A stretch of 64,000 nucleotides of DNA, from the NCBI RefSeq assembly GCF_035084215.1, contig NC_090339.1:58900001-58964000 (forward strand), written 5' to 3'. The notes beneath the pieces were generated by a model. It worked only from the letters and a program-made list of their open reading frames with translations, searched no databases and was not told where the DNA came from. This DNA comes from Heptranchias perlo (Eukaryota). Positions within the stretch are counted from its first letter, which is position 1. Each line of letters begins with the position of its first letter. The position numbers were made by a program, and so were the translations under genes. Shown piece by piece: positions 10,486 to 10,982 of this stretch.

Positions 10486-10648
10486 AGATTAGGTCGGGAT
10501 TAGGTGCTTAAGTCTTGGAGGAGGAATTGATTCTAAGACTTTCTGACTCGAAGGTGAGACTGAGTTGCAGCAGTGTGAGCAGAACAAGGGAAACATTATA
10601 GAATTATTTTAAGCTGATTATTTGAAGACTGCAAATCATAAAAATCAG

Positions 10649-10839
10649 GATGTGGAGATGCCGGTGATGGACTGGGGTGGACAAATGTAAGGAATCTTAC
10701 AACACCAGGTTATAGTCCAACAGTTTTATTTGAAAATCACAAGCTTTCGGAGCTTACCTCCTTCGTCAGGTGAGTGAGTGAAGGGTAATATCAAATGAAA
10801 CTGTTGGACTATAACCTGGTGTTGTAAGATTCCTTACAT
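10649..10839 (-). mobile_element. Penelope-like element remnant (pLTR + tail + inverted partial pLTR)
   Basis: 49-bp inverted repeat 10685-10733 / 10791-10839; unpaired 36-nt tail; flanking direct repeat CATAAAAATCAG at 10637-10648 and 10837-10848; hammerhead core inside. Confidence 0.8.
10737..10773 (-). ncRNA. Minimal type I hammerhead ribozyme motif
   Basis: Minus strand TCAC-CTGACGA-A-GGAG-GTAAG-CTCC-GAAA-GC-TT-GTGA: CUGANGA and GAAA cores, stem II GGAG/CTCC, stem I TCAC/GTGA. Confidence 0.7.
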
Positions 10840-10982
10840 AAAAATCAGAGCCTGGGAATTATCATTGGTGATACTGGCAGATCAAGGCTAAACACAATCA
10901 TTTGATATTAGCTATCCGCTGCTTTAGTGTAGGAATCATTTTTTCTAATGGGTTAACACCTCCGCTAAAATTGCAGACAATG

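What the first reader, a model, noticed from the sequence alone, without database searches (positions are those of the whole stretch)
10637..10848. Penelope-derived mini-element places a hammerhead ribozyme in the sense strand of an AFF2 intron
Seen: 12-bp direct repeat flanks, a 49-bp inverted repeat and a 36-nt unpaired tail. On the minus (AFF2-sense) strand: TCAC-CUGACGA-A-GGAG(GUAAG)CUCC-GAAA-GC-UU-GUGA, followed by AATAAA. Established: Penelope-like elements carry minimal type I hammerheads in their pLTRs, often with a palindromic helix III that favours dimeric cleavage, and show inverted-pLTR-plus-short-tail structures. Here the ribozyme lies in the loop between the arms, so the hairpin does not sequester it. 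Inference: it could cleave the pre-mRNA, possibly by pairing with the second sense copy at ~14433-14472.
Basis: partly seen in the sequence, partly recalled or inferred. Interest (0 to 1): 0.7.

Follow-up and report, generated by a model that had tools for sequence, protein, structure and literature searches.

The report
Penelope stump with minimal hammerhead, shark
A 200-base insertion in an intron of the shark AFF2 gene carries an intact minimal hammerhead ribozyme motif, but it is one copy of a very abundant repeat, likely the stump of a Penelope-like jumping gene, and it is predicted to cut the host RNA little or not at all.

Summary
The anatomy is real: 12-bp target duplication, 49-bp inverted arms, 36-nt tail, and a complete minimal type I hammerhead motif on the AFF2-sense strand, in the intron after the large AFF2 exon. 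It is not special to this locus. Same-species DNA lays 18,007 contigs on the stretch, nearly all on the element. The copy carries the family's majority letters, the family has two ends 36 nt apart, and another species appears to hold the empty site. Motif and layout match published Penelope-like elements (PLEs); no RT/GIY-YIG parent was recovered, so PLE membership is inferred. The proposed activity is poorly supported. The second sense copy is locked in a 96-bp hairpin (about 72 kcal/mol to free). In the whole element the ribozyme fold is predicted at about 0.2%, and the AAUAAA lies inside the stem. Published minimal PLE hammerheads are silent as monomers or need the PLE protein. The scan reported the same kind of element in other shark genomes (six notes). 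Verdict: ordinary new member of a known kind. One loose end: splice-site-like signals overlap the ribozyme.

The parts
10637..10648 (.). Target-site duplication, left copy (12 bp)
   Evidence: contigs of other family copies diverge before 10649 (138 in X1)
10649..10684 (-). 36-nt tail, present at this end only; between the family's two end points
   Evidence: loose ends at 10649 and 10683-10685
10649..10786 (-). Long 5'-truncated copy of the parent's 3' end (138 nt), sense to AFF2
   Evidence: contigs in X1 (21), X5 (1) and X8 (3) continue past 10786 with one shared sequence
10685..10733 (-). Part of the long copy that pairs with the inverted copy; holds AATAAA (10730-10725) and a branch-point-like CTTAC (10691-10687)
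10737..10773 (-). Minimal type I hammerhead motif: helix I 10773-10770/10740-10737, C3 at 10769, helix II 10761-10758/10752-10749, G12 at 10748, palindromic AGCU 10745-10742, predicted cut 10741/10740
   Evidence: matches consensus of Fig. S3 in PMC4209133
10787..10790 (.). 4-nt junction between long copy and inverted copy
10791..10839 (+). Inverted, shorter, tail-less copy; last 3 nt overlap the right duplication; one mismatch to the long copy
10837..10848 (.). Target-site duplication, right copy
14335..14591 (-). Second, independent insertion (e2) of a sister subfamily (89% to e1 over 123 nt): 12-bp duplication 14335-14346/14580-14591, about 35-nt tail, 96-bp arms 14377-14472/14489-14584
14435..14471 (-). 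Sense hammerhead motif of e2, fully paired with its own antisense copy
14490..14526 (+). Mirror hammerhead motif in the inverted arm of e2 (antisense to AFF2)
24785..25743 (-). Large AFF2 coding exon (residues 59-378 of P0001); its donor opens the intron that holds e1 and e2
27940..28059 (-). Preceding AFF2 coding exon (residues 19-58)

Best explanation
This is a short insertion with a 12-bp target duplication and an intact minimal hammerhead motif, likely the dead-on-arrival 3' stump of an abundant shark Penelope-like retrotransposon, whose ribozyme is predicted to be nearly silent in the AFF2 pre-mRNA. Shown: the anatomy, the abundance of the family, its two end points 36 nt apart, near-majority sequence, and that each inverted arm carries the letters of its own long copy. 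Inferred (from PMC11167929, where a PLE protein cuts and extends both strands and starts reverse transcription at two sites that bound the tail): the GIY-YIG nuclease nicked both strands 12 nt apart; the top-strand 3' end primed cDNA from the tail end (138 nt), the bottom-strand 3' end primed cDNA from the inner start (46-49 nt); the two truncated cDNAs were joined head to head and gap filling made the duplication. The ribozyme sits in the loop only because the second cDNA stopped short of it; in e2 it ran further and the ribozyme is paired. The motif is inferred to be kept by selection on the parent element, where it likely processes tandem transcripts as a dimer or with help from the element's protein, not by selection on this copy.
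For:: 18,007 contigs of same-species run X1 laid; summed depth 4.0-6.0 million over 10652-10763 against 8-37 in the flanks (no copy number, but a very large family); sharp ends at 10649 (138 contigs) and 10683 (67). All 13 tabulated X1 variants inside the element are under 50%, so e1 has the majority letter. In run X11 (another organism) a 451-nt contig matches the left flank at 85%, stops at 10636, and its depth value 4.91 reappears on the right flank to 10907; its 124 remaining letters fit the empty site (64 needed), not the filled one (264). Two independent insertions share tail, inner end and 12-bp duplication but differ at the junction. Consensus and layout match PMC4209133 Fig. S3, PMC3846280, PMC8557442. 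A single S. mansoni min-HHR showed no cleavage and dimers little; the Anolis HHR cleaved only with PLE protein; 1 of 9 Xenopus dimer elements cleaved. Folding.
Against: No RT or GIY-YIG reading frame was linked to this family here (no genome held; pattern scans empty). The joint row for the empty site was not among the 15 of 101 joints shown; the empty site is inferred from depth values. Nearest-neighbour folding ignores the tertiary core; a 3.9 kcal/mol gap is modest, and the isolated 39-mer folds correctly in 67% of samples. All core nucleotides are intact, so cleavage is not excluded. No cleavage assay or nascent-RNA data.
Confidence: 0.85

Rival explanations
1. The ribozyme cuts the AFF2 pre-mRNA in vivo at a meaningful rate, as a monomer helped by host or PLE proteins or as a dimer in trans with another transcript of the family, and lowers or times AFF2 expression.
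For: Core intact, sense strand, topologically in the loop; gap to the active-like fold only 3.9 kcal/mol; the Anolis HHR cleaves when PLE protein is present; conserved intronic hammerheads exist in amniotes; family sequence is plentiful in a run guessed to be RNA (2,495 contigs in X5).
Against: No helix III or loop I; 0.2% folded in context; the proposed partner is locked (71.6 kcal/mol); no other copy in the window; site apparently empty in another species; splicing can survive a cut intron by exon tethering (statement in review PMC5126111).
Confidence: 0.05
2. e1 and e2 are members of a non-autonomous mini-element (retrozyme- or MITE-like) that moves as a fixed fold-back unit.
For: Both have clean 12-bp duplications and the same plan; animal retrozymes derive from PLE pLTRs.
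Against: Arm lengths differ (49 vs 96), junctions differ, and depth falls about 40-fold or more across 10778-10791 while contigs continue into a shared parent sequence; joints between the arms fall at many positions (table 5); neither is a tandem array.
Confidence: 0.06
3. Same origin, but the inversion arose by self-priming (fold-back) on an antisense template, as proposed for Adineta PLEs, not by priming from both target strands.
For: Proposed for head-to-head PLE inversions in PMC3846280; weak self-complementarity next to the e1 junction (10790-10786 with 10740-10736).
Against: Does not by itself explain why one arm ends at the tail and the other at the inner start, each abutting a duplication copy; no perfect palindrome at either junction (57- and 16-nt loops).
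Confidence: 0.2

Closest known systems
Minimal hammerheads (min-HHR) of metazoan PLEs (Cervera and de la Pena 2014, PMC4209133)
   Same: Core CUGANGA plus bulged nucleotide, G10.1-C11.1, GAAA, palindromic 15.2-16.2, short helix I, AU-rich 3' flank; the turtle entry of Fig. S3 has the same G-C-U-U at helix III/cut site and a downstream AAUAAA. Most genomic copies there are solo and ascribed to truncated PLEs.
   Different: No shark among the rows of Fig. S3 or Table S1 that I saw (supplement parts 1-2 of 3); no parent ORF shown for this family.
EN+ PLE insertion unit with inverted 5'-truncated pLTR, 30-40-bp tail and short TSD (PMC3846280, PMC8557442, PMC11167929)
   Same: Inverted truncated copy, tail at one end only (36 nt here), AT-rich target, duplication (8-10 bp in Adineta, 12 bp here), two end points.
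   Different: Only 138 nt of the element's end is present; clade (Neptune or Poseidon) not determined.
Animal non-LTR retrozymes (bioRxiv 10.64898/2026.07.22.740005)
   Same: Non-coding, PLE-pLTR-derived, type I hammerhead; reported in one chondrichthyan genome; about 42-44% of Xenopus copies overlap introns.
   Different: Retrozymes are head-to-tail tandem arrays; this is a solo head-to-head fold-back.
Conserved intronic hammerheads of amniotes (RECK, CTCL, DTNB; review PMC6155905)
   Same: Type I hammerhead in the sense strand of an intron.
   Different: Those are conserved across amniote lineages and drawn with tertiary contacts; this one is minimal, one of a huge repeat family, and apparently absent at the orthologous site in another species.

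Membership tests
Metazoan min-HHR (type I) | Core CUGANGA + unpaired nucleotide, GAAA, NUH site | tested here: met
   H17 is U
Metazoan min-HHR (type I) | Helix II opened by G10.1-C11.1; short helix I; palindromic 15.2-16.2 without a stable helix III | tested here: met
   4-bp helix II, 4-bp helix I, AGCU
Metazoan min-HHR (type I) | Stem covariation across copies | tested here: inconclusive
   One double-sided change at helix II pair 5 (G-C in e2, C-G in an X11 loose-end consensus; G.G in e1) and one one-sided change in helix I (C-G to U.G in e2); no unpaired-core or stem variant at >=4% in X1; too few independent sequences
Metazoan min-HHR (type I) | Self-cleavage (as dimer or protein-assisted) | not testable with these tools
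   needs assay
Rfam hammerhead families | Covariance-model match | tested here: not met
   only sub-threshold miRNA-hairpin matches
EN+ Penelope-like element insertion | Inverted 5'-truncated copy, 30-40-nt tail at one end, target duplication | tested here: met
EN+ Penelope-like element insertion | Parent with telomerase-like RT and GIY-YIG ORF | tested here: inconclusive
   no genome held; five collection scans empty; parent seen only as 30 nt beyond 10786
Non-LTR retrozyme | Head-to-tail tandem units each with a hammerhead | tested here: not met
   solo fold-back, no tandem copy
Domesticated intronic hammerhead (RECK type) | Orthologous conservation | tested here: not met
   one other species examined with both flanks covered; empty site inferred

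The most novel reading that the evidence does not exclude
This family's terminal repeat overlays an 86-nt spliceosomal intron on the ribozyme: donor in loop II (10758/10757), branch-like CTTAC, acceptor at 10672, then a start codon in good context just past the tail. Splicing would delete the cut site and the AAUAAA, giving a switch between translated RNA and cleaved or retrotransposed RNA. Read antisense, the same motif forms a polypyrimidine-CAG|GT recursive-splice-like site. Thousands of stumps would then seed shark introns with working splice, poly(A) and cleavage signals, and the fold-back arm would decide which are masked.
Probability: 0.08. Interest if true: 0.55.

Novelty: new member of a known kind. 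Interest (0 to 1): 0.17.

Why it matters
As it stands, little: it adds a sevengill-shark family to a class described in 2014 and gives two tidy examples of the PLE integration signature (two cDNA start points, 12-bp duplication) that fit the 2024 in vitro mechanism. The pair e1/e2 (ribozyme in loop versus paired) would make a convenient natural test set for whether intronic PLE stumps cleave at all. It would matter more if such stumps cut, splice or polyadenylate host pre-mRNAs at scale, which nothing here shows.

Tried and rejected
Rfam: no hammerhead hit; the miRNA-family hits are generic hairpin matches far below gathering scores. Whole genome not held. Pattern scans for relatives found 0 in viral contigs, metagenomes (26, 42) and prokaryote genomes (44). 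No RNA holder listed. Run X5 (RNA only by guess) has no cover on the unique flanks and its depth ratio to DNA shows no step at the predicted cut (0.021, 0.023, 0.020); contigs cannot show ends, so neither is evidence. No joint matching the putative 86-nt intron among the 15 of 101 joints shown. Conservation test on X1 variants: 11 of 58 positions variable in 10679-10736 against 1 of 37 in the ribozyme (loop II), Fisher p=0.025, but boundaries were chosen after seeing the data; with the invariant tail included it is 11 of 88, p=0.11, and divergent contigs drop out as loose ends, so I give it little weight. Two other CUGANGA...GAAA matches (9256, 14191) fail the stem test. Lunse et al. 2017 was not held; known only through a review passage. 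Searches for Penelope+Heptranchias and Penelope+hammerhead+splice site+recursive splicing gave 0 papers; Penelope+shark+hammerhead ribozyme gave 1, where 'shark' is a shape simile. Supplements of PMC11167929 gave no text hits; bioRxiv supplements were not seen and may list a chondrichthyan family related to this one.

Full report
Observation. On the minus strand 10773-10737 reads as a minimal type I hammerhead with all core positions intact and a predicted cut between 10741 and 10740. A descriptor requiring helix I and II of at least 4 bp finds 3 sites in the window, all in this family; shuffles give 0.005 on average. Rfam finds no hammerhead family, which is unsurprising for a motif without helix III and loop I (inference). 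The motif fits the published min-HHR consensus position by position.

Host. The 348-aa frame at 24697-25743 (-) is AF-4 family and 100% identical over the aligned part to a protein labelled AFF2 of Heptranchias perlo. Residues 19-58 and 59-378 map to 28059-27940 and 25743 to about 24785; nothing later maps into 1-24784. So the element lies about 14 kb into a long intron, ribozyme on the sense strand.

A huge family with two ends. Laying four runs on 10540-10959 gave 18,007 contigs from same-species DNA (X1), with summed depth of 4-6 million on the element and 8-37 on the flanks. The ratio is about 2x10^5, but the tool warns that it is no copy number; the safe statement is many thousands of distinct copies. 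Other copies leave the alignment at 10649 (138 contigs) and 10683 (67), the two ends of the tail, and continue past 10786 into one shared sequence (21 contigs in X1, also X5 and X8). The element is therefore a 138-nt piece of a longer parent's 3' end, a 4-nt junction, and a shorter inverted piece. All 13 tabulated X1 variants inside it are minority letters, the duplications are identical and the arms differ once, so this copy is young (inference). The family is also abundant in another organism (10,846 contigs in X11), where one contig covers the left flank to 10636 at 85% identity and the same depth value covers the right flank; its length fits only the empty site. The joint itself was not among the rows shown.

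The second element. 14335-14591 has its own 12-bp duplication, the same tail, the same inner end, and 96-bp arms that include the whole ribozyme. Each inverted arm carries the diagnostic letters of its own long copy, so each fold-back was likely made at insertion. BLAST and an HMM find no further copy in the window.

How it was likely made. PLE insertions typically have an inverted 5'-truncated copy, a 30-40-bp tail at one end and a short duplication (passages of PMC3846280; PMC8557442). The Anolis PLE protein cuts and extends both strands at AT-rich DNA, is modelled as a dimer, and starts reverse transcription at two internal sites that bound the tail (PMC11167929, parts 1-2 of 4). The geometry here fits: the sequence running inward from each duplication copy is antisense to the element RNA, one from the tail end, one from the inner end, and at the right end three target bases match the template. 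Priming from both nicks followed by head-to-head joining explains tail asymmetry, variable arm length and duplication. This step is inferred; self-priming on an antisense template is the rival. That the ribozyme is in the loop in e1 and paired in e2 follows from where the second cDNA stopped.

Would it cut AFF2 RNA? The isolated 39-mer forms helix I+II in 67% of samples, the loop alone 13%, the nascent form 6%, the whole element 0.2%, 3.9 kcal/mol above the minimum; lower temperature does not help. The long copy without the inverted arm gives 2%, so competing folds are native to the family. The sense copy in e2 is made after its complement; freeing it costs 71.6 kcal/mol, and the strand-swapped e1:e2 dimer (-13.2) is weaker than two monomers (-17.8). 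These energies omit tertiary contacts. Published behaviour points the same way: a solo S. mansoni min-HHR showed no cleavage and dimers little (PMC4209133, parts 1-2 of 4); the Anolis ribozyme needed the element's protein and no reads ended at its cut site; 1 of 9 Xenopus dimer elements cleaved (bioRxiv 2026, parts 1-3 of 5). A review passage says short-stem-III PLE hammerheads likely cleave as dimers (PMC6765202). The AAUAAA is inside the 49-bp stem. Even a cut need not stop splicing (exon tethering, cited in PMC5126111, passages). Against my reading: the core is intact, no stem or core variant reaches 4% in X1, and there is one compensatory change between subfamilies, so the parent's ribozyme is likely functional; that says nothing on this copy.

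Membership. It works like, and is built like, an EN+ PLE stump with a min-HHR; motif and insertion features are met, the RT-GIY-YIG parent was not recovered, activity is untested. It is not a tandem retrozyme and not a conserved RECK-type intronic ribozyme (PMC6155905, passages). I recall, without a call, that similar repeat ends are common in sharks and turtles and belong to Neptune-type PLEs; the clade is not tested.

Loose end. On the sense strand e1 holds a donor-like site in loop II that matches the host exon's donor at 8 of 9 positions (one of 3 AGGTAAG in the 24.8 kb of intron), a branch-like motif and an acceptor at 10672 (one of 32 of 762 YAG sites passing my crude filter). Loose-end consensus lines at 10649 in X1, X5 and X11 end in the same six letters, which read as ATG-GCT on the minus strand (overall agreement only 0.38-0.41). 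The donor is absent in e2 and in the X11 subfamily, no such joint was among those shown, and the branch motif is paired in e1. The antisense of the motif reads as pyrimidine tract-CAG|GT at +10769, +14467 and -14494, 3 of the 5 sites with 12 or more pyrimidines among 36 YAG|GTRA sites; this follows partly from the reverse complement of the core itself. PLE introns touching hammerheads are known in Drosophila. I rate this lead at 8%.

Novelty and verdict. My searches found no paper on this family in this shark, but the class is described and the scan's own notes report the same kind of element in introns of other shark genomes (unchecked notes, not evidence). New member of a known kind; interest 0.17.

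Noticed in passing
window 20801-21020: A different fold-back insertion with a degenerate minimal-hammerhead-like motif (about 20853-20890, + strand, first core base changed, palindrome broken) in the 63-nt loop between 39-nt arms; same plan, other family, antisense to AFF2.
   Followed up: partly
window 10757-10672 (-): Donor-, branch- and acceptor-like signals bound a possible 86-nt intron that starts in ribozyme loop II; family contigs continue past the tail as ATG-GCT.
   Followed up: partly
window 14494 (-), 10769 (+), 14467 (+): The reverse complement of the hammerhead reads as pyrimidine tract-CAG|GT, like a recursive splice site; the one at 14494 is on the AFF2 strand but inside the 96-bp hairpin.
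   Followed up: partly
window 10965-10758 (-): A moderate acceptor at 10965 and the loop II donor would define a 207-nt cryptic exon with an in-frame stop near its start; untested.
   Followed up: no
window 10685-10839 and 14377-14584: 49-bp and 96-bp near-perfect RNA stems in the AFF2 intron; likely substrates for A-to-I editing (inference).
   Followed up: no
window 10652-10693: In run X5 (guessed RNA) the tail end is about five times richer relative to DNA than the ribozyme region; subfamily shares also differ, so the cause is unclear.
   Followed up: no
window 11036-11100: Another short inverted repeat (19-nt arms, 27-nt loop) 190 nt from e1, not examined.
   Followed up: no
window 5880-6865, 29738-31304, 38980-40569: Broken reverse-transcriptase-like frames that look like CR1-type LINE pieces (label recalled, not scanned) and many short interspersed repeats.
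   Followed up: no
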